DNA of 64,000 nucleotides from a virus. The position numbers and the translations under genes were made by a program. A model generated the notes under the pieces. The model saw nothing but the letters and a program-made list of their open reading frames with translations. It was not told the DNA's origin and did not search any database. The stretch covers positions 122,865 through 186,864 of the IMG/VR virus record IMGVR_UViG_3300049793_000366. One strand, written 5' to 3'. Position 1 is the stretch's first letter; every line of letters starts with the position of its first letter. Shown piece by piece: positions 3,650 to 62,685 of this stretch.

Positions 3650-3711
3650 ATTTAATATTCAAAATCTAATATATACAAATATAATATAAAAAACTATATA
3701 TCCAATAAAAT

Positions 3712-29462: not shown

Positions 29463-29468
29463 TTAACC

Positions 29469-29660: not shown

Positions 29661-29669
29661 AATAACAAC

Positions 29670-30071
29670 ATGGCAAACGCATGGATTCATTCAGTATCAT
29701 CAGTTAGAAAGTTTGGCGGTAAGCCAGAAGATTATTTAGAAATTCATCGTAAAATGGATTGTTCTAAATCGTATATTTCTGATAATCGACACAGAGCATT
29801 AACACATACAATGTTTTGGGTTAATGAGGTAATGGTTCCTCTATTTGGTTATACAATGACTAATAGTGATAACCGCGTAATTGCTGTCAAGGATATATGT
29901 GAAAGACATATACTCGAAGATTTCCATATGAAATTTATTCCCACCGCACAAGATTATCTTGAACACATGGAGTTCAAAGATTGGATGCAAAATGGTGTTA
30001 AAGGACACCCATCTTCTTATAATAAGCTTGCTGAAAAGAATGCTGAAAAAGAGAAAGAGACAACCGATTAA
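29670..30071 (+). CDS. hypothetical protein
   Basis: 133 aa ORF. Confidence 0.55.
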   Translation: MANAWIHSVSSVRKFGGKPEDYLEIHRKMDCSKSYISDNRHRALTHTMFWVNEVMVPLFGYTMTNSDNRVIAVKDICERHILEDFHMKFIPTAQDYLEHMEFKDWMQNGVKGHPSSYNKLAEKNAEKEKETTD

Positions 30072-39710: not shown

Positions 39711-42700
39711 TTATAATGATATGTTTTGTCCTGTTGGTAGGTTCGAAAGATTCTTTTGAACAGCTACTTTATTTCTACTTAAATTGAACTTAATTGTAAA
39801 CGTGAATGGTCTATTTTCAGCTTCATTTTCTAAGAAGAACTTTAACTTTTTAATATGTTTAACTGTTTGTGTAACGTTATTTAATACGATATACTTGTAG
39901 TTATTACCAGTTCCAGCATTCGGATCCAATGAATTCATCTTGAAATAGATATTGATTGGAATATTGATTGCGTTATTAGGACCACCTGGTACTGTGTGTA
40001 CTTTATCTGAATTAGTTTCAACTAATTTATCTAAGTCTTGAACTACTGGATGAATTGTTGTTAGTAATTTAGTTGTACTTGATACTGACACTGAATTCTC
40101 AACCCATTTACTTGTTTCAAGTAATGATGTATTTGAATTATTAAATGATAGTAAAGTAGTTTCAGAATAACCAATATTATATTCAGTAGATGCTAATGCT
40201 GGTACAATTGAATTGTTAGCATTTGTAGTAAATGCATTTCCAATATTATCAGCCAATTTAGTAACTGTTGATGTATCTTCGATTGTAGAGTAATTAACTG
40301 ACCAAGCAAACTGATTGTTCTTCTGTGTTAATGTTTTACCAGTTGTATTTGAAAACAATAGCTGATTTAATTCATTTACCCAGAAGATTTGAGGAGCCGC
40401 TGTGTTATATAACTCAGTACTTGTATTGTATATTCTACTTGATAATAATCCAAGTGGTGATTCAACTGATTTATTCTCAATCTTTAATAGGAAATCTTTA
40501 ATTACATAAATGTTGTTTTGATAAACACGTCCTGTTGGTACACCAGTATCACTGAATGTATCTAAGTAGTCTTCACACTCAACGTTGAATGTTATTTCAG
40601 AGTTATTCTTGATAACAAATGGTTGGTTATTTCTAAACATAGTTATTACAAGCTCACCCTTAGCACGTTTAATCTTCTCTTCTAAAGCGATTACTCTGTC
40701 TTGAAGAGATTTTAAATATCCGTGTAAGTCAATAGCAGTACCGTTATCATCTTTGAAACCAGATAAAATACTATCAGAACTTGTTACATATGTTTTATTT
40801 CCAACAACAGTGATACCATCTAATATTGTTGATAAACCTCTCGCATCAAGCTCAGATTGCATTCTAACTTTAAGCTCTTCTTGTGTAGCTTCTTTTAAAA
40901 TGAATTGGTCATCAGCCATAACATCATTTAAATCATCTGGGAAATCCAGTGATATGATTTGTGACCAATCAGATTCTACCGGAGATTCTGGCCAACCAAC
41001 TTCTGAAATTGATTTAATTCTTATTTCAACTCTTTCATTTGGTGAAATAGGAATATCTAACTGATTGATATTTGGAGTATCAGCATCAGAAACATCCTCT
41101 ATTGTCCATGAGTATTGTTTAGTTTTAGGATCCTGAATTCTTTTTCTAGCATCCGTTTTAATTTCTTTCCAATTTGAAAAGGCACCAGTTTTAATATTCT
41201 CACCATTTTTTACTGGCTTAAGTTTGAATGTTGTAGTAGTTGGCTCCTTACCATCTTTTGTTGTGTATTTATATTGTATTCTAAACTGAACAATTTCTTG
41301 AGGCTTAGTACCACGAGTTATAATTGCATCAGGAATAGTCCAGAATCCTCTTATGGAGAACTTCGGAGATTGCTTGCCTATACTTGTAGTCTTAGATATA
41401 TCTAATATATCCTTTACTAACGATGATTGTAAAGAAAGCTTTGATTCCTTTTGCTTTTGTAATTTATCTACTTCTAATTCGAATTGTTTTCTTTGTGCAT
41501 CAGATGTGAATCGAGTAACCTTTATTTGCTTATTCTTAGCAATTAATGAATCCGAAATTTGTTGAATTTCAGACTTTAAGTTTTTCTGTTCATTGTGCTT
41601 TGTCTTAATTAGATTACCATTTGGTGTATCTGTTAAGTGTTTATTTATTTGAACTACTTTAAAGTTATCAGCATTTAATGTTGGTGCTGGTGGCGTACCC
41701 GCTAATTGATTTGGTATCTTCTTAGCAACTAAGTCTTTTAATACTTCACCATAGTCATATACATTTTCAGTATAGAATTGTTCCATTGACTTACCATTGT
41801 TTGGGTCTTCTGAATTCAATCTAAGGTCATTAGTCCAATATCCAGTACCAAGACTCCAATCCTTAGCCAATAAGTGATTATCAGCATTTAGTGGCTTAAC
41901 GAAAACCACATTTCTCTCATCATATCCTACTGATATTTTAACGTTTTTATTAAAAACAACAGGTGAATATACTTTAAGCGTACCGATACCTACTGCAATC
42001 GGTTGTAAACCTTCAACTCTTTCAAATCTAACTCTGAAATTAGAAGCAAGTGTTGATACTTCAACCACTTTATATCTTGTTGTAGATATGTCTACATTAA
42101 CGATAACTTCGTCACCGTGTGCTAATTGTCTGATTTCATTTGTACCAGTAACTAAGTAGTCAATAGTATCTAAGTGATACCATAACTTTCTATTAAGTGT
42201 ATCTTGTTCTACTTTTATAACAGTGAATAAACCGTTGTATAATAATTCATTTGGGTCTAAGTCGAAGATTTGCTCATCGTAATTAGGTTCATTTGGACTT
42301 GTGATACCAGGTGTTGTTCTGTGCCAACGGTCAAACTCGTCTATTTTAATAGCAGTCTGCCCTCTGAATAATGTATTGAATGAATTTAAAGCAGATTGTC
42401 CTAAGTTGGTAAGATTACCCGCGTCATCCTTAGCGAATTCAACAATATATCTTCTAACTTGACACTTTCTAACATTATTTTCTATTTTACCATTTAAATC
42501 AATGATTATATTTAGCATTGGGTTTAGTAAACCATCAAAAATCCAGTTTTTGTTGGTAACAAAGGAACTTACTACGTTTAGTGAACCGATAGTAGCAGGC
42601 TCTCGGTTTAAATCAGCAGTAATTATCTTCTTAAATTTATTATTAGCTGGTTGTATAATAGATCCAGCAGAATCGATAGAATATAGGGTATTGATATTGT

Positions 42701-42911
42701 TGTTTAATCTATCAATTTCGGACTTTAAAAATCCAATGGTTGGTAGGTTAAATTGTCTCAAAACGCCATTCTCATCAGTTATTTTTACACTGATTGAGTT
42801 TTCTGTTGTTGTTACTAAATCGTTTAGTTTAGATAGTAATTCTACCGCATTGCGGTTATAACTTATGATTTGTTCTGCTACGGTTGTAAAGGAATTTCTT
42901 ATTGTTGACAT
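39711..42911 (-). CDS. giant structural protein (1066 aa), putative tail or baseplate component
   Basis: Very long ORF with a central coiled-coil segment (QKQKESKLSLQSSLVKD). No enzymatic motif recognised. Confidence 0.55.
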   Translation of the reverse strand: MSTIRNSFTTVAEQIISYNRNAVELLSKLNDLVTTTENSISVKITDENGVLRQFNLPTIGFLKSEIDRLNNNINTLYSIDSAGSIIQPANNKFKKIITADLNREPATIGSLNVVSSFVTNKNWIFDGLLNPMLNIIIDLNGKIENNVRKCQVRRYIVEFAKDDAGNLTNLGQSALNSFNTLFRGQTAIKIDEFDRWHRTTPGITSPNEPNYDEQIFDLDPNELLYNGLFTVIKVEQDTLNRKLWYHLDTIDYLVTGTNEIRQLAHGDEVIVNVDISTTRYKVVEVSTLASNFRVRFERVEGLQPIAVGIGTLKVYSPVVFNKNVKISVGYDERNVVFVKPLNADNHLLAKDWSLGTGYWTNDLRLNSEDPNNGKSMEQFYTENVYDYGEVLKDLVAKKIPNQLAGTPPAPTLNADNFKVVQINKHLTDTPNGNLIKTKHNEQKNLKSEIQQISDSLIAKNKQIKVTRFTSDAQRKQFELEVDKLQKQKESKLSLQSSLVKDILDISKTTSIGKQSPKFSIRGFWTIPDAIITRGTKPQEIVQFRIQYKYTTKDGKEPTTTTFKLKPVKNGENIKTGAFSNWKEIKTDARKRIQDPKTKQYSWTIEDVSDADTPNINQLDIPISPNERVEIRIKSISEVGWPESPVESDWSQIISLDFPDDLNDVMADDQFILKEATQEELKVRMQSELDARGLSTILDGITVVGNKTYVTSSDSILSGFKDDNGTAIDLHGYLKSLQDRVIALEEKIKRAKGELVITMFRNNQPFVIKNNSEITFNVECEDYLDTFSDTGVPTGRVYQNNIYVIKDFLLKIENKSVESPLGLLSSRIYNTSTELYNTAAPQIFWVNELNQLLFSNTTGKTLTQKNNQFAWSVNYSTIEDTSTVTKLADNIGNAFTTNANNSIVPALASTEYNIGYSETTLLSFNNSNTSLLETSKWVENSVSVSSTTKLLTTIHPVVQDLDKLVETNSDKVHTVPGGPNNAINIPINIYFKMNSLDPNAGTGNNYKYIVLNNVTQTVKHIKKLKFFLENEAENRPFTFTIKFNLSRNKVAVQKNLSNLPTGQNISL

Positions 42912-48282: not shown

Positions 48283-49482
48283 ATGATAATTCAGTCACTT
48301 CTCGATTTAGACTATTACAAACTAACAATGGGTCAATTAGCTTTCTTAAGCTTCCCTGATGTTGAAATTGAAGCCGCCTTTAAAAACAGAAAATCAAATA
48401 TTCGATTAGCGGATATTATCCCGGTTGACCGATTGATATCCGAACTCAATCATGTTAGAACTCTGGTTCTTAGTAAAGAACAGTTAAAGTTCGTTGAAAA
48501 ACAGGGCATATTTAAGCCAGAATACCGAGAGTATCTATATCAGATAAACCGTAGCAATCCTCTATCCGAAGTACGAGTAGAGGTTGTTGATGGTCAATTT
48601 GATGTGAGAACAAAGGGTAAATGGCCTAATGCCATTTTGTGGGAAACAATAGTATTAGCTGTTATTAACGAGCTATATTATGAGTATAAATACCCAAATC
48701 TCTCTTATGATGAGGGTCTTACTAGACTTGCGAATAAGATTAAAATTCTTAAAAAGCATCCACAAATTAAATTCTCTGACTTCGGTACTCGAAGAAGAGC
48801 ATCAAGAACATGGCAAGCACTTGTTGTTAATAAATTAAGACAAGCATTACCTAATCAGTTTCTTGGAACATCGAATGTTCAGTTGGCTATGGATTATAAC
48901 ATAACTCCAATTGGAACATTCGCACATGAAATGCCAATGGTTGCTTCTGGTGTTTGGTATGATACTGATGTTGAATTAAAAGCATCACATGGTAGAGTAC
49001 TTGATATGTGGTATGAGTTATATGATGTTAAATTATCAATTGCTCTTACTGATACATTTGGAACCAAATTCTTCTTTGAAGACTTCGTAGACCGCGCACC
49101 AGTTTGGAATGGTTTACGACACGATTCTGGTGATCCATTTGAATTTGGTCATAAAGTATTAGCTTACTACGCATCACTGGGTATTGATTCTAAAACAAAA
49201 ACTATTGTGTTTAGTGATGGTTTGGATTTAGATATCATCATCCGACTCGAAGCAATATTTGGTAAATTAATTAAATGCGTTTTCGGTTGGGGTACGACTC
49301 TGACAAATGACATTGGGTATGAAACATTATCTATTGTTATGAAAGCCATCCGTGCTAATGGTAATGAATTGGTTAAGCTTTCTGATAACTTAAATAAAGC
49401 TACTGGTTCCGATGCTACTAAATCTCGATACATTAGTGTATTTGGGTATGACAATCAAAAGCGTGAAGAGTGTGTAGTCTAA
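48283..49482 (+). CDS. pncB: nicotinate phosphoribosyltransferase
   Basis: Colinear with E. coli PncB: SLLDLDYYKLTM, FGTRRRAS, GLRHDSGDPFEFG, IVFSDGLDLD, VKLSDN. Confidence 0.85.
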   Translation: MIIQSLLDLDYYKLTMGQLAFLSFPDVEIEAAFKNRKSNIRLADIIPVDRLISELNHVRTLVLSKEQLKFVEKQGIFKPEYREYLYQINRSNPLSEVRVEVVDGQFDVRTKGKWPNAILWETIVLAVINELYYEYKYPNLSYDEGLTRLANKIKILKKHPQIKFSDFGTRRRASRTWQALVVNKLRQALPNQFLGTSNVQLAMDYNITPIGTFAHEMPMVASGVWYDTDVELKASHGRVLDMWYELYDVKLSIALTDTFGTKFFFEDFVDRAPVWNGLRHDSGDPFEFGHKVLAYYASLGIDSKTKTIVFSDGLDLDIIIRLEAIFGKLIKCVFGWGTTLTNDIGYETLSIVMKAIRANGNELVKLSDNLNKATGSDATKSRYISVFGYDNQKREECVV

Positions 49483-49508
49483 TAAGTAAAACCTAAAAAC
49501 AAAAACAC

Positions 49509-49808
49509 ATGGAATATAACGGTCAAACAAAAAAGGAATACGAGAAAAACTTCACACGTATTCGTGATATTATCACTAAGGCTGATGGTGATAAGGAAAA
49601 AGCTCTTCGACTTGCTAAAACACAAGCAGACAGAATAGAAGATGAATATAAAGCAATCAATCGTTCAAATGCCGCAGTAAAGCTTGGACATGAGTGGTTA
49701 GCTGACCCTTTCTTCGAAAGAGCTTATGAGCTTGGTGCTGTGGGTAAAATGGAGTACCGCGAATACAAGCTTAAGAAATTATTTGAAATGCAAGAAGAAG
49801 GAGCCTAA
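49509..49808 (+). CDS. hypothetical protein
   Basis: 99 aa ORF. Confidence 0.5.
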   Translation: MEYNGQTKKEYEKNFTRIRDIITKADGDKEKALRLAKTQADRIEDEYKAINRSNAAVKLGHEWLADPFFERAYELGAVGKMEYREYKLKKLFEMQEEGA

Positions 49809-50011
49809 TGAGACAGCAGATTCTTAAATACTTACCTATTAAAATTGCAATATTATTCTCTTTTATTACTGTGCCTCTTATCGCAGCAATATTCGTTAAT
49901 AGTGTTGTAATTTCTTACTTAATTGGTGCTATTTTTTTCGGTTTGCTACTGTTAGTTTACTATATAGTGAAGGGAAGGAAATCTCACCCAGAATTAAAAA
50001 ATAAAATTTGA
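49808..50011 (+). CDS. small membrane protein
   Basis: Two hydrophobic helices in 67 aa. Confidence 0.45.
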   Translation: MRQQILKYLPIKIAILFSFITVPLIAAIFVNSVVISYLIGAIFFGLLLLVYYIVKGRKSHPELKNKI

Positions 50012-50012
50012 A

Positions 50013-50270
50013 ATGAAAGAAGTAAGAATTCTATTAACGGAAGAAACATTCACACTTTTGTGTAAGCAGGGCTATGTTGCATATAAGAATAATATGTTTA
50101 GCGTATCTCAGATAAACATCACAAAAGCCGACTTGGAGAAGTTGATAAGCGGTGATATCATCGATAAACCACAGGATGGTGTTGACTTTAAAATTGCGTT
50201 AATGGATATCGGTTATGATAGGATTTTACCAATAATTAAACGTTCACCATTCTATGGTAATTCTATATAA
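50013..50270 (+). CDS. hypothetical protein
   Basis: 85 aa ORF. Confidence 0.45.
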   Translation: MKEVRILLTEETFTLLCKQGYVAYKNNMFSVSQINITKADLEKLISGDIIDKPQDGVDFKIALMDIGYDRILPIIKRSPFYGNSI

Positions 50271-50535
50271 AAATTTAGTATTTTGTTCAAGTATATATGG
50301 TACTAAACTGACTGGTAGAAAGGATGTGAAATTTTTAGAAGTACATTATGGTAGCGATAAAGATTTTATTGAAAAGTATCAGAAAATTTACCCAAATCAT
50401 CGAAAGGGAATATTCTTAGATGCTAGAAAACCTGTACCGAGAGATTTCAGACTCGATGTTGAACATATGATTAAGTCAGACCCACTGTTAATTCAAACAA
50501 TTCGTGATTTAAAGCTTGAAGAGTTATGTCAATAG
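50254..50535 (+). CDS. hypothetical protein
   Basis: 93 aa ORF ending in TAG. Confidence 0.45.
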   Translation: MVILYKNLVFCSSIYGTKLTGRKDVKFLEVHYGSDKDFIEKYQKIYPNHRKGIFLDARKPVPRDFRLDVEHMIKSDPLLIQTIRDLKLEELCQ

Positions 50536-50906
50536 AAGAGAAAATATTCATATATGGGTTTATGTTTATTATGCTTGGTGTTCTATACTTCATCGGATTT
50601 TTTATACGTGACTATAAACAAAAGTATCTACGTAATAAAAGAATGCAGAGGTTGAATTGGAATAAGGTATTGAAAATATTCGCGTGTGTTACTGGATTTT
50701 GTTTACTTGGTTCTATCAACAATAAAATGTTTACTTGGTATGAAGCTCCGATAATGGGATTTACTATCACTGCTGTGATTTTGTTTGCTGGTATATTTAG
50801 ACCAGAGAATGATACAAATGAGTATAAACAATTCGATAATCCTGAGTTTAAGGTATATGAGAAAGCACATCAGAGAGATAGAAAAATTAAAGATATTTTA
50901 AAATGA
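50526..50906 (+). CDS. hypothetical membrane protein
   Basis: Three hydrophobic helices in 126 aa. Confidence 0.5.
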   Translation: MSIEEKIFIYGFMFIMLGVLYFIGFFIRDYKQKYLRNKRMQRLNWNKVLKIFACVTGFCLLGSINNKMFTWYEAPIMGFTITAVILFAGIFRPENDTNEYKQFDNPEFKVYEKAHQRDRKIKDILK

Positions 50907-51457
50907 AGGTAGGATTATTCTTTGGGTCATTTAACCCAATACACTTAGGTCACTTAGAGATTGCTGAGAAATCAGCTAAATATGTAGATGAAGTTTGGTT
51001 CATTGTTTCACCTCACAATCCATTTAAGGATCCGAGTATGTTGATAAACCAAACTTCTCGATTAGAAATGGTTAAGTTAGCCGTTGAGTCTACACCGCAT
51101 TATAAAGTTAGTGATGTTGAATTTAATTTACCAACACCTACGAGAACTCATGTTACTTTAGAAAAATTAATCGAAGAACACGAGCATGAATTTTTATTGA
51201 TATTTGGTTCTGATTGTGTGAATACATTACACACATGGGAAAGAGGTGATTGGATTTTAGAAACATTTCCTATCATCGCATTTAAGAGAGAATCTGAGGA
51301 TGTAAATCCTGAAATTTATAAAAAGTTAATATCAGAAACTCATATATCATCTACGATAATACGAAATAATATTATAAATGGTTTGCCGGTTGATAGTCTT
51401 CTACCAACTTTAGTTGAGCAATACATATATAATAATGGATTATGGTCACACAAGTAA
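50903..51457 (+). CDS. nadD: nicotinate/nicotinamide mononucleotide adenylyltransferase
   Basis: GSFNPIHLGHL (HxGH nucleotidyltransferase motif) and C-terminal ISSTIIR motif. Confidence 0.8.
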   Translation: MKVGLFFGSFNPIHLGHLEIAEKSAKYVDEVWFIVSPHNPFKDPSMLINQTSRLEMVKLAVESTPHYKVSDVEFNLPTPTRTHVTLEKLIEEHEHEFLLIFGSDCVNTLHTWERGDWILETFPIIAFKRESEDVNPEIYKKLISETHISSTIIRNNIINGLPVDSLLPTLVEQYIYNNGLWSHK

Positions 51458-51711
51458 ATAAAGTACTACACTTTGATAATTCGAGAATAGAACTATCGCA
51501 AACTGGTCTTTGTTTTACTGCCTTTTTCTACACGAATGATAGCGAGAAACCTTGTTTTCATTTTAAATTTTATTCGGATGGAAAGTCGATAATTGAGGAT
51601 TTTAAGAAGGAAGCTCGTAACTATATGTCAACCAGTATATTGACTGATTTTATCAACAAAAACCCTGATGTATTACGGACAATTAATTTTGATAATTTAA
51701 TTGTTAATTGA
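51442..51711 (+). CDS. hypothetical protein
   Basis: 89 aa ORF. Confidence 0.45.
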   Translation: MVTQVNKVLHFDNSRIELSQTGLCFTAFFYTNDSEKPCFHFKFYSDGKSIIEDFKKEARNYMSTSILTDFINKNPDVLRTINFDNLIVN

Positions 51712-51730
51712 GAAAAAGTTTGTATATTTG
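51701..51730 (+). promoter_or_regulatory. Bacteroidetes-type promoter (TTG -33 element, 19-nt spacer, TATATTTG -7 element)
   Basis: TTG at 51701-03 and TATATTTG at 51723-30, about 35 nt upstream of the pncA start. Confidence 0.4.
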
Positions 51731-51765
51731 TAATTGATTAATGGACACTAAAAACCAAAACATAT

Positions 51766-52383
51766 ATGTTTAAATTAAAACCAAATACTCGTTCATTGTT
51801 CTGGAATGTTGACACTCAAGTTGACTTCATGAATTCAGAAGGTAAGTTATACGTTACTGACGCAGAACAAATCAAAGACACTTTAGCAAAAATAACCAAG
51901 TTCGCTAAAGACAACAATGTTCAGGTTGTTAATACTGCTGATTGGCATTATGCTGATTCTGCTGAGTTATCCGAAACACCTGATTTTATAAATACCTTCC
52001 CACCACACTGTATGGCTAATACGCCTGGTGCTGAGTTGATACCGGAAACAAAACCAGAAAAGTATGATTCTATCATTGATTGGAAAAATCCAAAATGTGA
52101 TATTAAAACTGACTCTACAAACTTTTTAGTCTTGAAAGATAAGTTTGATGTCTTCACTGGAAATCAGTTCACTAAAAGATTAATTGATGCTTTAAACCCA
52201 GATGTTGTTTACGTCTATGGTGTAGCTACAAATGTCTGTGTTGACTGTGCTGTTAACGGTTTACTTGATAACGGTTATAAAGTGGTTGTGTTTGAAGATG
52301 CTATTAAAGAGCTTCCAAATATACCATCACCAATACAAAATTGGATAGACAAAGGAGCAGAAATTATTAAATTCACAAACTAA
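51766..52383 (+). CDS. pncA: nicotinamidase (isochorismatase family)
   Basis: Isochorismatase-fold layout: N-terminal D..Q.DF, conserved Lys region (VLKDKFDVF), catalytic Cys in GVATNVCVDCAV. Confidence 0.75.
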   Translation: MFKLKPNTRSLFWNVDTQVDFMNSEGKLYVTDAEQIKDTLAKITKFAKDNNVQVVNTADWHYADSAELSETPDFINTFPPHCMANTPGAELIPETKPEKYDSIIDWKNPKCDIKTDSTNFLVLKDKFDVFTGNQFTKRLIDALNPDVVYVYGVATNVCVDCAVNGLLDNGYKVVVFEDAIKELPNIPSPIQNWIDKGAEIIKFTN

Positions 52384-52395
52384 AATATAAATACT

Positions 52396-53250
52396 ATGAA
52401 TACGAAAAAAGTATCAAATCACATCACCAATTGGTTAAAAGATTTTGCATTAAATACTAAACAAAACGGTTACGTTATCGGAGTATCTGGTGGAATTGAC
52501 TCCGCAGTTGTTTCGACACTATGCGCCCGTACTGGATTACCACTTATTGTTGTGAGTATGCCTATTCATCAAGAAGCTAATCAAGTTTCTCGCGCACAAG
52601 AGCATATGGATTGGTTGAAAAAAAATTATCCAAATGTAACACAGTTTGAATTTGACTTAACATCAGTTTATGATTCATTCGTAACTAAGTTAGATGGTAA
52701 AACACATTTTATTTCAAAGCCTGAGCATGATACACAGGTTGCTGATAAAATGTTCTTAACACTTGCGAATACTCGCTCTCGTTTGAGAATGACAACACTT
52801 TATTCACTTGCCGGATTAAACAATATGCTTGTTGCTGGTACTGGTAATAAAGTAGAAGACTTTGGTGTAGGATTCTTCACTAAGTATGGTGATGGTGGAA
52901 TTGATGTATCACCAATCGGTGAGTTGATGAAATCTGAGGTATACATATTGGGTGCTGAATTAGGTATAAACCAAGCAATACTTTCAGCAAGACCTACTGA
53001 TGGTCTTTGGGATGATGGTAGAACAGATGAAGACCAAATTGGTGCTACTTATGATGAACTTGAGTGGGCTATGGGTGTTCAAGAAGAATTGGGAAATAAT
53101 CCTGAGACTTTATACGAAATGAACGAAAGACAAACGATAGTGTGGAATATTTATTTGTCTCGACACACCGCTAACTCACATAAAATGCAAATGCCACCAG
53201 TTTGCTCATTAAAAGGAATTAAATATGATGAAGAAGTTGTTGCACAGTAA
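52396..53250 (+). CDS. nadE: NH3-dependent NAD+ synthetase
   Basis: PP-loop GVSGGIDSAV and GFFTKYGDGGIDVSPIG, colinear with E. coli NadE. Confidence 0.85.
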   Translation: MNTKKVSNHITNWLKDFALNTKQNGYVIGVSGGIDSAVVSTLCARTGLPLIVVSMPIHQEANQVSRAQEHMDWLKKNYPNVTQFEFDLTSVYDSFVTKLDGKTHFISKPEHDTQVADKMFLTLANTRSRLRMTTLYSLAGLNNMLVAGTGNKVEDFGVGFFTKYGDGGIDVSPIGELMKSEVYILGAELGINQAILSARPTDGLWDDGRTDEDQIGATYDELEWAMGVQEELGNNPETLYEMNERQTIVWNIYLSRHTANSHKMQMPPVCSLKGIKYDEEVVAQ

Positions 53251-53596
53251 TCTATCTGGTGTTGAGAACACCAGTGATTTAAATTATGTTTTTTCTTTAA
53301 TTAGAAAGGCATCAAATTCAATCGAAAGAACTGCTTTAATAAAAAAAGCATTGAAACTTAATGAAGAGGTTGGTGAATTATCAGCAGAAGTTTTAAGAGA
53401 AGATGGTTATAAAGACAGCACTTATACGAAAGAAGAAATTCGTAGAAGAATAATCGAAGAGGCAGTTGATTCATTAGTTATGATTGGTGATATTCTAAAC
53501 GATGTTAAAGCAACCGATTCTGAAATAATTGACTGCACCGAAGATGCTGTTACGAAATGGTTGACTAAACTCGATGAGAAGAAGAATAAAGTCTGA
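53225..53596 (+). CDS. MazG-like nucleotide pyrophosphohydrolase domain protein
   Basis: EEVGELSAEVL...EEAVDSLVMIGDIL matches the all-alpha NTP-PPase (MazG/HisE) E-x-x-E...E-x-x-D motif pair. Confidence 0.5.
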   Translation: MMKKLLHSNLSGVENTSDLNYVFSLIRKASNSIERTALIKKALKLNEEVGELSAEVLREDGYKDSTYTKEEIRRRIIEEAVDSLVMIGDILNDVKATDSEIIDCTEDAVTKWLTKLDEKKNKV

Positions 53597-53822
53597 GTGG
53601 CGTAGTGAGACTAAAAATCTCACAGAGATTGGATATCTTCAACACACCATCAATACGGTGAATGATATGATAGCAGAGACAGAGGTGTTGGTTGATAGAT
53701 TGCTCGATAAGGGTGAATTAACTGACGTTGACCGTCTTATGCTTAGAGAATTGGAAGAATATAAAGTAGGATTAAGAGAGTTAAAAGCTCAAGGAATAAA
53801 AAATTTAAAAGAAGCACTATGA
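53574..53822 (+). CDS. hypothetical protein
   Basis: 82 aa. The 5' end overlaps the previous gene, so the true start is probably an internal Met. Confidence 0.4.
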   Translation: MRRRIKSEWRSETKNLTEIGYLQHTINTVNDMIAETEVLVDRLLDKGELTDVDRLMLRELEEYKVGLRELKAQGIKNLKEAL

Positions 53823-54226
53823 AAAAATTAACAGCTTATGTTGTATTCGAAAAGGGGTACGAGTACAATGACGAAATTTATCACTTACCTGATGTAAGCG
53901 GTGGTGATCCAAAGAGAGTAACATTCTCAAAAGAAGATGCTAAGAATCTTATTACTGTGTTGAGCAGAGATTCATTCAGAGGATTGGATATTGGTAATTA
54001 TACATATGACCTAAAAGATGTAGTTGATGAAATATCTCTAAAAGAGATATTCAAAATCAATAAGTGGAAATGGGATGAAGATAATTTAACTGTTCCTGAG
54101 AAAGCAACCGATGAACAAATCGATGAGGTTATGAAATTTATTGATTTACAGTTTTATGACTTTCAGGAAGTTGAAATGGATATTGCATCAATGCGTAATG
54201 CAAAAATAGAAATAGTAGAAAGCTAA
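53819..54226 (+). CDS. hypothetical protein
   Basis: 135 aa ORF. Confidence 0.5.
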   Translation: MKKLTAYVVFEKGYEYNDEIYHLPDVSGGDPKRVTFSKEDAKNLITVLSRDSFRGLDIGNYTYDLKDVVDEISLKEIFKINKWKWDEDNLTVPEKATDEQIDEVMKFIDLQFYDFQEVEMDIASMRNAKIEIVES

Positions 54227-54762
54227 TGAATTTTAAAAATAAACCGAACCATTGTATTAGTACTGAGAATGGTCAAGTGTGGGTGTCTCGTTCGGTAGCA
54301 GTAGTGGTTACTACCTTACTACGATGTAATGATGAATTATATGCGCTTATGATTAAGCGTGGTGAGAGCGTTCATGCTTCGGGTAAATGGTGTATGCCTT
54401 GTGGTTACTTAGATTGGGATGAAACCGCGTCTGAGTGTGCTGTTAGAGAGATTTGGGAAGAATCTGGATTAGATGTTCTGGGTCTATCTAAATCTGAAAT
54501 TGAACATAATGGTTTACATAATGTGTGGGATTTAAATACTAATCCTGACTTAAATGATAGTCAAGATGTAGCTCTTCATTATTCAATAATAATATCTTCT
54601 GATAACTTTCCTAAGCTTAGTGATGAAAATGCCGAAGAGAATGAGGTAGTTGGCCTTGCGTGGGTTAAACTTTCTGAACTTGGTGAATATAACTTAGCAT
54701 TCCGTCACGACGAAAGAATAAAAAAGTTTTTGGATTACTATGAGAAGATTAAAGTTAAATAA
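54226..54762 (+). CDS. Nudix hydrolase
   Basis: Nudix box GKWCMPCGYLDWDETASECAVREIWEESGLDV (G-x5-E-x7-REUxEExGU). Confidence 0.7.
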   Translation: MNFKNKPNHCISTENGQVWVSRSVAVVVTTLLRCNDELYALMIKRGESVHASGKWCMPCGYLDWDETASECAVREIWEESGLDVLGLSKSEIEHNGLHNVWDLNTNPDLNDSQDVALHYSIIISSDNFPKLSDENAEENEVVGLAWVKLSELGEYNLAFRHDERIKKFLDYYEKIKVK

Positions 54763-54916
54763 TGAGAATGCAAGAGTAGGCGGTGTATGCGCTGGTCTTG
54801 GTGAATACTTCAATATTGATCCTGTTTGGTTTAGATTGCTTTTTGTAATTGGTTTTTTTACACCAATGATTCCTGCCGTGTTGACTTATATAATAATATT
54901 GATAGTTTTAGATTAA
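54740..54916 (+). CDS. PspC-domain small membrane protein (58 aa; not in ORF track)
   Basis: MRRLKLNNENARVGGVCAGLGEYFNIDPVWFRLLFVIGFFTPMIPAVLTYIIILIVLD is a PspC domain (GVCAGLGEYF...RL.F). Overlaps the Nudix gene 3' end by ~23 nt in another frame. Confidence 0.55.
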   Translation: MRRLKLNNENARVGGVCAGLGEYFNIDPVWFRLLFVIGFFTPMIPAVLTYIIILIVLD

Positions 54917-54917
54917 C

Positions 54918-55355
54918 ATGGAAATTTTAAATAGAAGAGCATATTACGATTATAGCATCATAGAACATTATGAAGCGGGTATTATGTTGACTGGTTCGGA
55001 GATAAAGTCAATACGAGGTGGTGAAGCAAACTTAAATGAAGCATATGTATTCATCAATAACGGCGAGGTATTCGTTAAGAATATGTACATTTCTAAATTT
55101 GAACAATCTTCATATTTGAACCATGAAGAAAAGCGTGATAGAAAATTATTACTTTCTAAAACTCAAATTTTAAAAATTGAAAAATATCTACAAACAAAAG
55201 GTACTGTGATTATACCGATAAAAGTATTTTTCAGCAAACGCTGGGCAAAACTAAAAATCGGAGTTGGTCGTGGTAAGAAAACCTACGATAAGAGAGAATC
55301 GATAAAAGAAAGAGAATCAAAAAGAGAATTGTCTCGACTGAACTCGAAAGTATAG
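54918..55355 (+). CDS. smpB: SsrA-binding protein SmpB
   Basis: Colinear with E. coli SmpB: NRRAYYDY, EAGIMLTGSEIKSIRGGEANL, GEVFV, KLKIGVGRGKKTYDKRESIKERE. Stop is TAG then TAA. Confidence 0.8.
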   Translation: MEILNRRAYYDYSIIEHYEAGIMLTGSEIKSIRGGEANLNEAYVFINNGEVFVKNMYISKFEQSSYLNHEEKRDRKLLLSKTQILKIEKYLQTKGTVIIPIKVFFSKRWAKLKIGVGRGKKTYDKRESIKERESKRELSRLNSKV

Positions 55356-55380
55356 TAAATATTTAGTTTTTTATATGTGA

Positions 55381-55408
55381 AACCGATGTCTAAAGCATCG
55401 GTTTTTTC
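55381..55408 (+). terminator. rho-independent terminator after smpB
   Basis: AACCGATG-TCTAAAG-CATCGGTT hairpin followed by TTTTT. Confidence 0.55.
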
Positions 55409-55466
55409 TTTATTGGATAAAATAAATAATATATACTCCATATATAAAAACAAGACCCATAGCACT

Positions 55467-56192
55467 ATGCCGAATTTAGAAGAGATACTTAATATGATCC
55501 AAAATCATGGAATTTTTACCACAATTTTATTTTTAGTTGGTATTGGATTTTGGGGTTTAATGAAAACAGCTTGGTTTAGTGATTTGGTTTCTAAATTTGG
55601 AGATGCACTTATTGGAAAACTTTTTAAGAAAAAAAAGCACAATGATTTAGTTGCGATTACTGAAGTGGAAATAATTAACCACGATATATTTAACTATATT
55701 GACTTGTGGCAATTCTCTATAATTCCAACTCTTAACTTTTCAACTGACTACAGAACCGTAGTATTTAGAAAGTATCTTAAAATATACTTACAGAAGCATA
55801 AAGAAAACTTAAGCAAGTTCATTACTGATGCTAAGTATAAAGATATGCCCGAATCTGAGCTTTGGAAGAGCTTTCTTCAATTGATTAATGATATTATTCA
55901 TGATTATGAGAAAGAGATGTCACACCAAGGAATTCCAGATGTAATCATCGAGAAGATGAAAGTTAAGAATAATGATACATTATCTCTTACTATTGATTTG
56001 ATTGAGGGTATTTGTAACTCACAATTCTATGGTTCTGAGAATAACTTACTAAAAGTCTATTCTATATTGAATATTATGTTATCTATACTTGAGAATACTG
56101 TCTCTGGTTCAGCCAATGTTTGTAACTCTATTAATGGTCAATTAGCAGGGTTGGAGATGGATGGACGAAAAGAACCGGATTCAAATCACTAA
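55467..56192 (+). CDS. hypothetical membrane protein (start re-called; track ORF begins at GTG 55377)
   Basis: The ATG at MPNLEEILNMIQ lies after the smpB terminator. The GTG-started 5' extension would encode the terminator hairpin itself. Confidence 0.45.
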   Translation: MPNLEEILNMIQNHGIFTTILFLVGIGFWGLMKTAWFSDLVSKFGDALIGKLFKKKKHNDLVAITEVEIINHDIFNYIDLWQFSIIPTLNFSTDYRTVVFRKYLKIYLQKHKENLSKFITDAKYKDMPESELWKSFLQLINDIIHDYEKEMSHQGIPDVIIEKMKVKNNDTLSLTIDLIEGICNSQFYGSENNLLKVYSILNIMLSILENTVSGSANVCNSINGQLAGLEMDGRKEPDSNH

Positions 56193-60195: not shown

Positions 60196-61209
60196 TTATT
60201 CAGCGAATGAAAGGTTAAGCTGTTCGATTGATTGTTTCTCTTCAAGACTAATAATAGCCCTTGCTATCATTTTGTCGCATGATATAACGTGTAACTTGTC
60301 GGATTGTTTATTAACAGCTATTGTGTCTGATATAATCAATTCAGTTAATACAGAAGAGTTAAGATTCTCGATAGCATTTCCGGATAGAATACCATGTGTA
60401 GCAATAGCACGTACTGACCTAGCACCATTTTCCATTACCAACTCACTTGCTTTCTTTAAAGTACCTAATGTATCAGCCATATCATCTATGATAACAACAT
60501 TGCGGTCTTTTACATCAGCACCCATTAATTCCATTGAATGAATTTCATTTGGTTTAACTCGGCGTTTATTTATCTGAGCGAAGTGTGCTTCTGGGAAATA
60601 TTTAGCAAAGTCTAATGCTCTTTTTACACCACCTTGGTCTGGTGACATTATTGTTAGATTTTCAAGAGCAAGTGACTTGATGTAGTTTGTGAAAATTTTA
60701 CCACCATTTAAGTGAATAACTGGTATGTTGAAGAATCCTTGAATTGCAGATGCGTGTAAATCAATTGTGATGATTCGTGTTGCTCCACCTCTTTCATAGG
60801 CATCAGCCATAACCCTTGCTCCAATTGATGAACGAAGGTGGTCTACCTTATCTTGACGTGAGTAACCATAATATGGTGTCACGAGTGTTATTTCTTTAGC
60901 ACCAGCTCTTTTAGCAGCATCTAATATCAACATAGTTTCCACGATAGAATCAGAAGAACTTGTTGTTTGTATAATATAGATATCTTTACCACGCACAGAC
61001 TCATTGAAAGTTGGGAATATCTCACCATCTTTGAATTTCTCAATCTTTAAATCACCAAGACCCGTACTTTGTGGTGTCAGTAGACTTGTAGCTTGTTGCG
61101 ACAATACGATTTTATTAATACTATCAGCGAGTGATTCGCTTGATGTTCCAGAAAAAATAGTGAATGTGTTCATAATAGTGGTATTAATTTTTTGATGAAA
61201 TGTTTTCAT
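60196..61209 (-). CDS. prs: ribose-phosphate pyrophosphokinase (PRPP synthetase)
   Basis: Colinear with E. coli Prs: FKDGEIF, YYGYSRQDK, IITIDLHASAIQGFFNIPVIHL, PRPP-binding loop VVIIDDMADTLGTL. Confidence 0.85.
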   Translation of the reverse strand: MKTFHQKINTTIMNTFTIFSGTSSESLADSINKIVLSQQATSLLTPQSTGLGDLKIEKFKDGEIFPTFNESVRGKDIYIIQTTSSSDSIVETMLILDAAKRAGAKEITLVTPYYGYSRQDKVDHLRSSIGARVMADAYERGGATRIITIDLHASAIQGFFNIPVIHLNGGKIFTNYIKSLALENLTIMSPDQGGVKRALDFAKYFPEAHFAQINKRRVKPNEIHSMELMGADVKDRNVVIIDDMADTLGTLKKASELVMENGARSVRAIATHGILSGNAIENLNSSVLTELIISDTIAVNKQSDKLHVISCDKMIARAIISLEEKQSIEQLNLSFAE

Positions 61210-61705: not shown

Positions 61706-62054
61706 TTAGAACTTCATTAAGTTTGTTTCCTCTGTAAATTGACTTATTTGGTTTAGTCGTTTTATATATCTTATTAAGCCAAGTACCTAAGTCTAAAGCT
61801 TGTCTTGAATTATAATAATGTGAAGACCTCTCGCTATAAAATTTGCTATGAATATCTTCTTGTTCATGTTCCTCGAAAGAGTCCCACCATACAGGATCTA
61901 TTAGCATTTTAACCTGAGTACCAAATGTTTTTAATTGCCTTTTCTTCTCACGTCTTCTCGCTCTATCATTATGATATTGAGAATCTTCGTTGTCTTGCTT
62001 TTCTCTCCAACGTTGTACTTGAGGTTCATTTAAATATCTGTTATTTTTCATCAT
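61689..62054 (-). CDS. hypothetical basic protein
   Basis: 121 aa, Arg/Lys/Glu-rich N-terminus. Confidence 0.5.
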   Translation of the reverse strand: MMKNNRYLNEPQVQRWREKQDNEDSQYHNDRARRREKKRQLKTFGTQVKMLIDPVWWDSFEEHEQEDIHSKFYSERSSHYYNSRQALDLGTWLNKIYKTTKPNKSIYRGNKLNEVLSDEKI

Positions 62055-62685
62055 TCAGTTTTGCTTTTTTCCAATTTTTAGTCCAGTGAACATCTGTTTG
62101 TACGTGTCCTTTTCTTACCCACTTCATAACACTTGTTGAAAAATCATCGTTGTGAAATGCGTCAGCTTTTCTTATAACAATACCTTCTCTTTTTCCACCA
62201 AGTATAGACTCTTTTTGTGATAACTCTTCTACGGTGCTTCTGAGTTCTTTCTCATTGGTGATAATACCATTGAAGAGTACGGGTGTTGTCGGAAGGTCTA
62301 AAAGAAATGAATATTCTTCAACAGTAGACCATGGTACCCATATTTCACCATCGCGTACACCGAACATATAAAAATATGATTTTAGATTTGAATATTCGAT
62401 AGAGTGTATACCATACATATTCTCACCGAAGATGTAAGTATCTAAATCTATTGAAAGTTTTATGCGTTGCCATATATCCCACATTGGTCTATCCCAAGCA
62501 TTTTCGGAGTGAGCGGCATGAGAACGTCCGAATACACCGTATCTTTCAAGTGTTGTGTTGGAGCCATCAAGTTTTTCAGTTATGATAACTGGTATATTCA
62601 ATAGTGAATCTACTGAATGTGAAATACGGTCATCCGATGTAGCACCGGGTGAGAACGGTAAGTGGTATGTTCTTGCGTATTTCAT
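62041..62685 (-). CDS. ATP-dependent RNA ligase (Rnl2-like nucleotidyltransferase domain)
   Basis: Motif I EKLDGSN (KxDG), motif III IFGENMYG, motif IV REGIVIRK and motif V VMKWVRKGH, in the same order and spacing as the T4 Rnl2 NTase domain. Confidence 0.6.
   Translation of the reverse strand: MKYARTYHLPFSPGATSDDRISHSVDSLLNIPVIITEKLDGSNTTLERYGVFGRSHAAHSENAWDRPMWDIWQRIKLSIDLDTYIFGENMYGIHSIEYSNLKSYFYMFGVRDGEIWVPWSTVEEYSFLLDLPTTPVLFNGIITNEKELRSTVEELSQKESILGGKREGIVIRKADAFHNDDFSTSVMKWVRKGHVQTDVHWTKNWKKAKLNDEK

What the first reader, a model, noticed from the sequence alone, without database searches (positions are those of the whole stretch)
54918..55355. Phage-encoded SmpB, the tmRNA (SsrA) partner of trans-translation
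The 145 aa protein is colinear with E. coli SmpB across the whole beta-barrel, including the C-terminal tail (KLKIGVGRGKKTYDKRESIKERE) that probes the empty ribosomal A-site mRNA channel. It is followed by a clean terminator. SmpB is essential for tmRNA function. A phage copy implies manipulation of ribosome rescue, or of tmRNA tagging and proteolysis. Possible purposes are boosting rescue during massive phage mRNA turnover, titrating host tmRNA, or servicing a phage-encoded tmRNA; the tRNA-like element at 29463-29669 is a candidate fragment, though too short for a standard tmRNA.
Basis: partly seen in the sequence, partly recalled or inferred. Interest (0 to 1): 0.75.

Follow-up and report, generated by a model that had tools for sequence, protein, structure and literature searches.

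The report
SmpB gene in a huge phage
A roughly 0.7-megabase bacteriophage carries an intact, selectively maintained copy of SmpB, the protein partner of the bacterial ribosome-rescue RNA tmRNA; this is real, but it has already been reported for huge phages, and no phage tmRNA was found alongside it.

Summary
ORF 54918-55355 (+, 145 aa) is a full-length SmpB. It passes Pfam PF01668 (179 bits, cut-off 27) and both NCBIfam equivalogs. Its AlphaFold model matches only SmpB structures in the PDB. The C-terminal tail keeps the GKK, aromatic Tyr and DKR motifs and the basic helix. A terminator hairpin follows the gene and is conserved in two relatives.

The window is part of a ~712-kb phage related to the curated 642-kb "uncultured phage" LR756502.1. 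smpB sits in the same gene order in at least five independent assemblies and is under strong purifying selection (pN 0.07-0.21, pS 0.68-0.88).

No tmRNA was found in the window, in 10 kb beyond either end, or anywhere in the complete relative LR756502.1. The tRNA-like element at 29470-29656 is a tRNA frame interrupted by 115 nt. It lacks tmRNA hallmarks and is absent from relatives that keep smpB.

The most likely role is an orphan phage SmpB that works with the host's tmRNA to keep ribosome rescue running during infection.

Huge-phage SmpB was already reported (Al-Shayeb 2020), so this is a new member of a known kind. Interest is modest.

The parts
54918..55355 (+). smpB coding sequence (145 aa, stop TAG followed by in-frame TAA)
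   Evidence: ORF list and sequence. Pfam PF01668 179 bits. NCBIfam equivalogs NF003843 and TIGR00086 above cut-off. PDB SmpB chains to E 1e-36. AF2 model pLDDT 86.3, and the top 21 Foldseek PDB hits are all SmpB.
55272..55352 (+). codons for the C-terminal tail (G119-V145): G119-K120-K121, Tyr123 (equivalent of E. coli His136 / T. thermophilus Tyr126), D124-K125-R126, and a basic helix from about residue 125 to 144
   Evidence: Alignment with E. coli, T. thermophilus and Bacteroidota SmpB. G119, K120, K121, K125 and K130 are invariant and D124 and I129 nearly invariant in 33 homologues. A helix at 125-144 is predicted. The roles of these motifs are taken from PMC4151336 and PMC3895274.
55379..55411 (+). 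intrinsic-terminator-like hairpin (GAAACCGATG / CATCGGTTTT) plus T-run, 24 nt after the smpB stop
   Evidence: Terminator scan. The same stem and U-run are found after smpB in L041 and L040.
54740..54916 (+). 58-aa PspC-domain membrane ORF. Its stop lies 1 nt before the smpB ATG, and it is a conserved upstream neighbour.
   Evidence: ORF list. PF04024 label and conserved adjacency in L001, L040, L041 and L043-L045.
54226..54762 (+). NUDIX hydrolase gene that overlaps the PspC ORF. The same tightly packed gene string ends at the smpB terminator.
   Evidence: phrog_1198. PF00293 label and conserved order NUDIX-PspC-SmpB in relatives.

Best explanation
The gene encodes a functional SsrA-binding protein (SmpB) carried by a ~0.7-Mb phage of the LR756502-like huge-phage group. 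The host is probably a Bacteroidota bacterium, although the closest cellular SmpBs also include low-GC Bacilli and Tenericutes MAGs. Proposed mechanism: after infection the phage SmpB binds the tRNA-like domain of the HOST tmRNA. The complex enters ribosomes stalled on truncated or stop-less mRNAs together with EF-Tu. The basic C-terminal tail probes the empty mRNA channel, Tyr123 stacks on 16S G530, and the ribosome is freed. This keeps the ribosome pool available for phage protein synthesis while host gene expression, including host smpB, is shut down and while mRNAs and tRNAs are being cut by phage or host nucleases. Shown here: family membership, fold, intact tail motifs, phage location, conserved gene order, purifying selection, and absence of a detectable tmRNA in the sequence available and in the closest complete genome. 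Inferred: use of the host tmRNA and the benefit to the phage.
For: Identity.

Tail motifs: GKK, aromatic Tyr123, DKR and the basic helix are intact and match those of cellular Bacteroidota SmpBs. Their functional importance is documented in PMC4151336 and PMC3895274.

Retention: the order NUDIX-PspC-SmpB-...-572-aa wedge protein is conserved in contigs from JGI, NCBI, ENA and Logan samples at 74-100% protein identity. Synonymous sites are saturated (pS 0.68-0.88) while pN is 0.07-0.21, so dN/dS is below about 0.1. That is as constrained as the neighbouring NadE, NAPRTase and NUDIX genes. The more distant complete phage LR756502.1 keeps smpB about 10 kb from the same gene block that lies about 12 kb from smpB in the window, which suggests a shared ancestral position.

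No partner RNA: ARAGORN and Rfam find no tmRNA in the window, none in 10 kb beyond either end, and none next to smpB in relatives. In all 642 kb of LR756502.1, ARAGORN finds 46 tRNAs and 0 tmRNA, and Rfam finds tRNAs and a GOLLD RNA only.

Cross-species compatibility is plausible: H. pylori SmpB, only 34.6% identical, fully replaces E. coli SmpB (PMC2862035). The phage protein is 50-59% identical to Bacteroidota SmpBs.

Phage need for rescue has precedent: lambda-immP22 plates about 10,000-fold worse on smpB or ssrA mutants.

Context: the same genome region carries other translation and RNA-repair genes. These are a class I aaRS-like gene, a polynucleotide kinase, an RNA ligase, a CCA-adding enzyme and an amber-suppressor tRNA. 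Suppressor tRNAs are known to increase demand for tmRNA (PMC3985003).
Against: Only about 84 kb of the ~712-kb genome could be read, so a tmRNA elsewhere in this phage is not excluded. Some huge-phage contigs do pair a tmRNA with smpB: L009 has a tmRNA about 860 nt upstream of smpB. Al-Shayeb et al. also report tmRNAs in huge phages. The host is not identified, and the best cellular SmpB match is only 58% identical. No expression or binding data exist. A divergent tmRNA could escape both ARAGORN and Rfam.
Confidence: 0.65

Rival explanations
1. The phage SmpB serves a phage-encoded tmRNA located in the ~630 kb of this genome that could not be read, so the phage brings a complete trans-translation pair, possibly with its own tag sequence.
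For: Al-Shayeb et al. report both tmRNAs and SmpB in huge phages. IMG/VR contig L009 (193 kb) carries RecA, Tad3, NadE and dCMP deaminase, and has a 354-nt tmRNA with tag DDTTTYRMAA about 860 nt upstream of smpB.
Against: There is no tmRNA in the 64-kb window, in its 10-kb flanks, or next to smpB in six related contigs. The closest complete genome, LR756502.1, has smpB but no tmRNA by ARAGORN or by Rfam over all 642 kb. Where phage pairs exist, as in L009, the two genes are adjacent. Here they are not.
Confidence: 0.15
2. The phage SmpB is a decoy. It sequesters host tmRNA or occupies stalled ribosomes to block tagging and proteolysis of phage proteins, or to cripple host rescue, rather than supporting rescue.
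For: E. coli tail mutants still bind tmRNA and ribosomes but are inactive (PMC4151336), so a dominant-negative SmpB is conceivable in principle. One related lineage (P0010/P0013) has NKK in place of DKR.
Against: In the window protein every tail motif needed for activity is intact: GKK, aromatic residue, DKR and basic helix. These are conserved across the clade under purifying selection. A decoy would be expected to lose them. Even the NKK lineage keeps the aromatic residue and the basic character.
Confidence: 0.08
3. The 187-nt tRNA-like RNA at 29470-29656 is a miniature, non-canonical tmRNA-like partner of the phage SmpB.
For: It has a genuine tRNA frame: a 7-bp acceptor stem, a T-arm with a TTCAAGC loop and A73. 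ARAGORN with introns allowed makes this its only call in the window and makes none in 20 shuffles. A 115-nt insert replaces the anticodon loop, which is formally how a tmRNA is built. If a base pair is added at position -1:73, the G:U wobble would fall at position 3:70.
Against: In the normal register the acceptor stem reads G1-C72, G2:U71, C3-G70, so the alanine identity pair G3:U70 is missing. No tag-like reading frame ending in a hydrophobic or Ala-rich C-terminus was seen by eye. ARAGORN in tmRNA mode finds nothing even at a lowered threshold, and Rfam finds nothing at E up to 10. The fold is no more stable than shuffles (z = -1.55). The element is absent from LR756502.1 and from 32 related loci, where an L7/L12-C-terminal-domain-like ORF usually occupies the position, although the clade keeps smpB. 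It lies 25 kb from smpB.
Confidence: 0.03
4. The gene is host DNA: a prophage-boundary carry-over, a chimeric assembly, or a decaying passenger with no role.
For: Many 'phage' database hits to SmpB are of this boundary kind. For example, Staphylococcus phage StauST398-5 has smpB at record positions 46-405, and the hits include short Listeria and gut contigs. ssrA is a common prophage integration site (own knowledge).
Against: The gene lies deep inside phage DNA, with tens of kb of phage genes on both sides, and GC is uniform at 0.30-0.36. The same gene order appears in independent assemblies from different samples. Purifying selection is strong. No cellular species representative is closer than 58% identity.
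Confidence: 0.02

Closest known systems
Bacterial SmpB (SsrA-binding protein; Pfam PF01668, TIGR00086), e.g. T. maritima 7LJP, T. thermophilus 4V8Q/2CZJ, E. coli 6Q97/7AC7
   Same: Same length class, same beta-barrel fold plus C-terminal helix (TM 0.75-0.92), and the same tail motifs. 35-43% identical to solved SmpBs and up to 58-59% identical to Bacteroidota and low-GC Bacillota SmpBs.
   Different: It is encoded on a phage genome. It has no neighbouring or detectable ssrA gene. It belongs to a phage-only clade (members 64-100% identical to the window protein) that is at least 40% diverged from every cellular species representative.
SmpB genes of huge phages reported by Al-Shayeb et al. 2020 (LR756501-LR756504, LR745206) and of Lak megaphages of Prevotella
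   Same: Same phenomenon: SmpB carried by phages of more than 500 kb alongside tRNAs, aaRS and other translation genes. LR756502.1 is a true relative, with wedge 66%, SPFH 68-70% and a 1066-aa protein 65% identical, and smpB lies at a similar distance from the same conserved gene block.
   Different: The window's SmpB is only 42-50% identical to those copies. Its immediate neighbours (the NAD-salvage genes, NUDIX, PspC and the wedge) are arranged differently. This ~710-kb lineage is not in the GenBank phage or IMG/VR collections searched.
Phage-encoded tmRNA + SmpB pair (IMG/VR contig L009, 193 kb)
   Same: A huge-phage-like contig with SmpB 51% identical to the window's protein.
   Different: L009 has a canonical 354-nt tmRNA about 860 nt upstream of smpB. 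No tmRNA was found in the window lineage or in LR756502.1.
PHROG family phrog_6791
   Same: The window protein matches it at E 9.7e-48 over its whole length, so phage SmpBs are already clustered as a phage protein family.
   Different: PHROGs v4 labels the family 'unknown function'. It is in fact SmpB.

Membership tests
SmpB / SsrA-binding protein (PF01668, TIGR00086, NF003843) | Whole-length profile match above the curated cut-offs | tested here: met
   Pfam 179 bits (cut-off 27), residues 4-141 on profile 3-140/143. NF003843 185.7 bits (cut-off 130) and TIGR00086 178.2 bits (cut-off 119), both of type 'equivalog'.
SmpB / SsrA-binding protein (PF01668, TIGR00086, NF003843) | SmpB beta-barrel (oligonucleotide-binding-like) fold | tested here: met
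   AF2 model with pLDDT 86.3 and pTM 0.71. The top 21 Foldseek PDB hits are all SmpB (E 1.5e-13 to 6.5e-07; core rmsd 1.1-2.3 A). The next hit has E above 0.1.
SmpB / SsrA-binding protein (PF01668, TIGR00086, NF003843) | Basic C-terminal tail with (K)GKK, an aromatic residue at E. coli position 136, DKR, and a helix-forming basic segment | tested here: met
   G119-K120-K121, Y123, D124-K125-R126, and IKERESKRELSRLNSKV with six Lys/Arg residues. These positions are invariant or nearly invariant in 33 homologues. A helix at 125-144 is predicted. The motif definitions come from PMC4151336 and PMC3895274.
SmpB / SsrA-binding protein (PF01668, TIGR00086, NF003843) | Conserved tmRNA-binding surface residues (E. 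coli E31, L91, K124; roles recalled from the literature, not re-read here) | tested here: met
   They align to E19, L78 and K111 in the window protein. L78 and K111 are invariant in alignment A1.
SmpB / SsrA-binding protein (PF01668, TIGR00086, NF003843) | Binds the tmRNA tRNA-like domain and supports trans-translation | not testable with these tools
   This needs binding assays or complementation of an smpB deletion.
Complete trans-translation system (tmRNA + SmpB) encoded by the phage | An ssrA (tmRNA) gene in the same genome | tested here: not met
   None in the window (ARAGORN; Rfam), in the flanks, or next to smpB in relatives. None in the complete relative LR756502.1. About 88% of this phage's own genome was not available.
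tmRNA (for the element at 29470-29656) | G3:U70 alanine identity pair in the acceptor stem | tested here: not met
   The acceptor stem reads G1-C72, G2:U71, C3-G70 in the ARAGORN model.
tmRNA (for the element at 29470-29656) | Match to tmRNA covariance or heuristic models, and a tag reading frame with a resume codon and stop | tested here: not met
   ARAGORN -m finds nothing, including at -ps80. Rfam has no tmRNA-family match at E up to 10. The only longer frame in the insert, read by eye from the sequence, ends ...FIIER*, which is unlike the Ala-rich ends of the phage tags.
tmRNA (for the element at 29470-29656) | Co-inheritance with smpB across relatives | tested here: not met
   It is absent at the homologous position in L046-L050 and LR756502.1 and in 27 metagenome loci, and it has no similarity anywhere in LR756502.1. 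The halves of the element have no exact match in IMG/VR.
Huge-phage (>200 kb) translation-support gene repertoire (Al-Shayeb 2020) | Located on a phage genome above 200 kb that also carries other translation genes | tested here: met
   Contigs of 711,805 and 709,085 bp. Phage structural genes are present. A class I aaRS-like gene is present. A suppressor tRNA and a CCA-adding enzyme lie in the flank. The related genome LR756502.1 has 46 tRNAs.

The most novel reading that the evidence does not exclude
The phage SmpB does not simply top up host rescue. Instead it works with a non-canonical phage RNA partner. The only candidate seen is the 187-nt tRNA frame with a 115-nt insert at 29470-29656, acting as a miniature tmRNA-like molecule. 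A highly divergent tmRNA elsewhere in the unread genome is the other possibility. Either way the phage would run its own private ribosome-rescue or tagging channel.
Probability: 0.04. Interest if true: 0.85.

Novelty: new member of a known kind. Interest (0 to 1): 0.3.

Why it matters
Phage-encoded SmpB has been listed in huge-phage gene inventories, but no functional study turned up in the literature searched here. This lineage gives a clean case. The smpB is intact and strongly constrained. It has been kept across a clade of 0.6-0.7-Mb phages. As far as can be seen, it has no phage tmRNA. That pattern points to SmpB protein, rather than tmRNA, as the component that becomes limiting or vulnerable during infection. 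It also fits the view that very large phages defend the translation apparatus against mRNA and tRNA cleavage. The idea is directly testable by complementation of smpB mutants. The practical point is smaller: PHROG family 6791 should be annotated as SmpB.

Tried and rejected
1. Megablast of 10 kb around the gene against GenBank phages found nothing. Relatives were only found at the protein level.

2. The window's own contig was looked for in IMG/VR and in the JGI metagenome collection so that the whole genome could be scanned for ssrA. It was not retrievable. The best IMG/VR SmpB was 56% identical and the best metagenome relative of the NT5C gene was 79%. The complete relative LR756502.1 was therefore downloaded in 13 pieces and scanned instead.

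3. The DUF6915 gene next to the tRNA-like element was used to find syntenic relatives. The family proved very widespread and highly conserved (735 hits, the listed ones 61-83% identical), so it is a poor marker of close kinship. It still showed that relatives carry an L7/L12-like ORF where the element sits.

4. Exact-pattern searches for either half of the element in IMG/VR gave no match.

5. ARAGORN at a lowered threshold gave 'permuted tmRNA' calls in L042-L045 and LR756502.1. They overlap the smpB/PspC coding region on the opposite strand, or tRNA arrays, and were rejected as artefacts.

6. The spliced tRNA frame was compared with tRNA-Phe genes of related phages. There was no informative similarity, so the anticodon assignment (GAA) remains only ARAGORN's guess.

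7. A neighbour-joining tree of SmpBs shows the window clade as one tight group. Deeper branches are unresolved for a 145-aa protein, so no donor lineage is claimed.

8. The review PMC3358797 is not held in the library, so other papers were used for the tail motifs.

Full report
**Observation.** The ORF at 54918-55355 (+) starts with ATG, encodes 145 aa and ends TAG followed by TAA in frame. It matches Pfam SmpB (PF01668) at E 6.4e-53 and 179 bits against a cut-off of 27, covering profile positions 3-140 of 143. It also exceeds the curated cut-offs of both NCBIfam equivalog models, NF003843 (185.7 vs 130) and TIGR00086 (178.2 vs 119). Fifteen distinct PDB SmpB sequences match, the best being T. 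maritima 7LJP at E 1e-36.

An AlphaFold2 model built on 33 homologues has pLDDT 86.3. It shows the barrel strands and a C-terminal helix at residues 125-144. In a Foldseek search of the PDB the top 21 hits are all SmpB (TM 0.75-0.92 on the core), and the next hit has E above 0.1. The same stem and U-run follow smpB in two related contigs.

**Is it a phage?** Yes.
- The identical protein is recorded on a 711,805-bp JGI contig, and a 76%-identical one on a 709,085-bp NCBI contig.
- The window has uniform GC of 0.30-0.36 and is 92% coding under the standard bacterial code.
- It contains a baseplate-wedge homologue (phrog_219), a protein with head-decoration/virion structural domains, a large protein matching a PHROG family of unknown function (phrog_29329), and a polynucleotide kinase.
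- Its proteins are 62-70% identical to those of LR756502.1, a 642-kb 'uncultured phage' genome whose locus tag in the supplement of Al-Shayeb et al. 2020 reads 'curated_closed_complete'. The matches include the wedge at 66%, the SPFH protein at 68-70% and a 1066-aa protein at 65%.
- In LR756502.1 smpB lies about 10 kb from the end of the same conserved gene block, against about 12 kb in the window.

**Functional integrity.** Aligned with E. coli, T. thermophilus and Bacteroidota SmpBs, the phage protein keeps the N-terminal NRRA/Y-DY segment, E19 (E. coli E31), the GSEIKSIR segment, RKLLL (L78 = E. coli L91) and K111 (= K124). It also keeps the whole tail:
- G119-K120-K121.
- Tyr123, at the position of E. 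coli His136 and T. thermophilus Tyr126, which stacks on 16S G530.
- D124-K125-R126.
- A basic segment predicted to be helical.

The literature read here defines these as the functional elements of the tail. KGKK and DKR mutations or tail truncation abolish tmRNA activity in vivo. The aromatic residue drives EF-Tu activation. Residues 142-160 form a helix in the empty mRNA channel (PMC4151336; PMC3895274). E. coli Trp147 is Ser in the phage protein, but that position is not Trp in T. thermophilus or Bacteroidota SmpBs either.

**Evolution.** smpB is embedded in the same gene string (NAD-salvage genes, NUDIX, a 58-aa PspC-domain ORF, smpB, two unknown ORFs, the 572-aa wedge protein) in independent assemblies from Logan, NCBI, JGI and ENA. 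Their SmpBs are 100, 89, 76 and 74% identical to the window protein. Pairwise Nei-Gojobori counts give pS 0.68-0.88, which is saturated, and pN 0.07-0.21. Where dS could be estimated, dN/dS is about 0.08-0.09. This is comparable to or lower than the neighbouring NUDIX, NadE and NAPRTase genes.

The gene is therefore an old, constrained resident of this phage clade and not a recent capture. No cellular species representative in GTDB is more than 58% identical. The best matches are low-GC Bacilli and Tenericutes MAGs and Saprospiraceae/Chitinophagales. A rough NJ tree shows the window clade as one tight group. Other huge-phage SmpBs are scattered among Bacteroidota sequences, but the deep branches are not reliable for so short a protein.

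**Is there a phage tmRNA?** None was found.
- ARAGORN and an Rfam gathering-threshold scan find no tmRNA, and indeed no tRNA, in the 64-kb window.
- The 10-kb extensions on either side, obtained from the 185-kb Logan contig, have none.
- The six related contigs have none next to smpB.
- I assembled all 642,428 bp of LR756502.1 from 13 fetched pieces. ARAGORN finds 46 tRNAs and no tmRNA. Rfam finds only tRNAs, a GOLLD RNA and a DUF805b motif.
- Lower-threshold ARAGORN 'permuted tmRNA' calls overlap coding sequence or tRNA arrays and are artefacts.

Phage-encoded pairs do exist elsewhere. IMG/VR contig L009 (193 kb, with RecA, the anti-Thoeris Tad3, NadE and dCMP deaminase) has a canonical tmRNA about 860 nt upstream of its smpB. 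The best reading for this lineage is therefore an orphan SmpB. The caveat is that about 88% of this phage's own genome was out of reach.

**The tRNA-like element.** With introns allowed, ARAGORN reads 29470-29656 as a tRNA frame. It has a 7-bp acceptor stem with two G:U pairs, a weak 3-bp D-stem, a 5-bp anticodon stem, a 4-nt variable loop, a T-arm with loop TTCAAGC, and A73. A 115-nt insert interrupts the anticodon loop. It is the only such call in the window, and there are none in 20 block-shuffled copies, so the frame is not chance.

It is not a tmRNA by any test available:
- The wobble pair is at 2:71, not 3:70.
- There is no tmRNA call even at a lowered threshold.
- No Rfam family matches at E up to 10.
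- The fold is no more stable than shuffles (z = -1.55).
- No tag-like reading frame was seen by eye in the insert.

It is also lineage-specific. At the homologous position, between the NT5C-like gene and the DUF6915 gene, relatives L046-L048, L050 and LR756502.1 carry an ORF resembling the C-terminal domain of ribosomal protein L7/L12. In L049 that ORF is interrupted by a 60-nt insertion. Twenty-seven further related metagenome loci lack the element. Its two halves have no exact match in IMG/VR. SmpB is conserved in phages that lack the element, so the two are not a co-inherited pair. What the element is remains unexplained; an interrupted tRNA, perhaps with a small intron or insertion, is the simplest reading.

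**Mechanism.** I commit to an orphan phage SmpB that uses the host tmRNA. Cross-phylum interchangeability of SmpB is documented: H. pylori SmpB, 34.6% identical, restores both growth and lambda-immP22 plating to an E. coli smpB deletion (PMC2862035). The same paper documents that a phage can depend on trans-translation, with a roughly 10,000-fold plating defect on smpB or ssrA mutants.

The genomic setting fits a translation-maintenance or counter-defence role. The window and its flanks hold:
- a class I aaRS-like gene;
- a polynucleotide kinase plus an NT5C-family HAD phosphatase;
- an RNA ligase;
- a CCA-adding enzyme and a 2H phosphoesterase;
- an amber-suppressor tRNA (anticodon CUA) about 1.2 kb beyond the left end of the window.

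Iyer et al. 2021 interpret such jumbo-phage RNA-repair and ribosome-rescue genes as answers to host attacks on translation (PMC7824862). Nonsense-suppressor tRNAs are known to create read-through events that are handled by tmRNA (Ueda et al. 2002, as cited in PMC3985003). A phage that brings a suppressor may therefore raise the need for rescue. Use of the host tmRNA and the benefit to the phage are inferences, not shown.

**Rivals.**
- A phage tmRNA elsewhere in the genome: 0.15.
- A decoy or dominant-negative SmpB: 0.08. This is disfavoured by the conserved active tail.
- The tRNA-like element as a mini-tmRNA: 0.03.
- Host contamination or a decaying passenger gene: 0.02. This is effectively refuted by synteny, selection and the 58% ceiling on cellular identity.

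**Novelty.** SmpB in huge phages is stated in Al-Shayeb et al. 2020. tblastn finds SmpB in 67 phage records, including all 15 Lak records present and the five 635-735 kb uncultured phage records among the listed hits. IMG/VR holds 38 further loci. smpB is listed among phage-borne genes in gut viromes (PMC10294663). PHROGs already clusters these proteins as phrog_6791, labelled 'unknown function'. The searches run here found no functional study of a phage SmpB.

The finding is therefore a new member of a known kind. It is solidly real and somewhat informative, because it is an orphan, constrained and clade-wide. It is not surprising to a specialist.

Noticed in passing
window 29470-29656 (+): A tRNA frame (acceptor stem, T-arm with TTCAAGC loop, A73) interrupted by a 115-nt insert in the anticodon loop. 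ARAGORN reads it as tRNA-Phe(GAA) with an intron. It exactly fills the gap between the NT5C-like gene and the DUF6915 gene. Relatives have an L7/L12-C-terminal-domain-like ORF at this position instead. The insert is probably too short for a group I intron (my own estimate of typical intron size), and no Rfam family matches. Its nature is unexplained.
   Followed up: yes
window 48283-54762 (+) and 60196-61209 (-): A near-complete Preiss-Handler NAD+ salvage set on the phage, with smpB as the last gene of the same string. It comprises NAPRTase (PncB-like), a CTP_transf_like nucleotidyltransferase (NadD/NMNAT-like), an isochorismatase (PncA-like), NAD synthase, NUDIX and PRPP synthetase. Relatives add a Macro-domain ORF. 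Jumbo-phage NAD+ synthesis has been described (PMC11662467).
   Followed up: partly
L176 12908-12980 (-), about 1.2 kb beyond the left end of the window on the same contig: An amber-suppressor tRNA (anticodon CUA). In the window, 4 of 9 TAG-terminated ORFs, including smpB (TAG TAA), are followed at once by a second in-frame stop, against 11 of 63 for TAA. The window is not TAG-recoded (92% coding under the standard code). Two other IMG/VR SmpB loci (L016, L038) have a CUA tRNA within about 0.2-1.1 kb of smpB. A suppressor-SmpB link is possible, but the numbers are small.
   Followed up: partly
window 28528-29016, 29013-29462, 62041-62685 (-); L176 14400-16386: RNA-repair genes: a polynucleotide-kinase-like P-loop kinase (AAA_33, phrog_505), an NT5C-family HAD phosphatase, an RNA ligase, and, just outside the window, a CCA-adding enzyme (PolyA_pol) and a 2H phosphoesterase.
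   Followed up: partly
window 5239-6504 (+): A 421-aa class I aminoacyl-tRNA-synthetase-like protein. The best Pfam matches are tRNA-synt_1 and the MetRS-type tRNA-synt_1g. It looks short for a full-length MetRS (my impression, not checked).
   Followed up: no
L175 6430-7089, about 2.5-3.2 kb beyond the right end of the window: A 219-aa ClpP-family protease. ClpXP degrades SsrA-tagged proteins, but ClpP-like proteins in phages are often prohead proteases. This was not resolved.
   Followed up: no
window 54740-54916 (+): A 58-aa PspC-domain membrane ORF whose stop is 1 nt before the smpB start. It is conserved in this position in most relatives.
   Followed up: no
window 55377-56192 (+): The mechanical ORF start (GTG 55377, or ATG 55386 in the public gene call) lies inside the smpB terminator hairpin. 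The real start is probably further downstream; ATG 55468 is my reading of the sequence. The PHROG match (phrog_18926) begins only at residue 82.
   Followed up: partly
window 29670-30071 (+): A DUF6915 (PF21866) protein. The family is extremely conserved, with 735 metagenomic homologues found and the listed ones 61-83% identical. It is sometimes auto-annotated by JGI as 'cysteinyl-tRNA synthetase'. In relatives it is flanked by an L7/L12-C-terminal-domain-like ORF and an SPFH/Band-7 protein.
   Followed up: partly
L059 38685-39091 (LR756502.1 about 434,685-435,091): A GOLLD RNA (Rfam RF02032, 275 bits) directly followed by a tRNA in the related 642-kb phage. That genome has 46 tRNAs, clustered at 373-423 kb.
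   Followed up: no
L049 about 3600-3660, compared with L048: A 60-nt insertion interrupts the L7/L12-like ORF in the 633-kb ENA contig relative to an otherwise near-identical Logan contig.
   Followed up: no
P0010 / P0013 lineage (L042-L045): SmpB of this related phage lineage has G-K-K-N-W-N-K-K in place of G-K-K-x-Y-D-K-R. The aromatic residue and the basic charge are kept, but the Asp of DKR is lost.
   Followed up: partly
window 11111-15484 (-), 35745-39707 (-), 39711-42911 (-): Three very large ORFs (1457, 1320 and 1066 aa) with no Pfam match. The 1066-aa protein matches phrog_29329 (unknown function). All three have homologues in LR756502.1 (31-65% identity).
   Followed up: no
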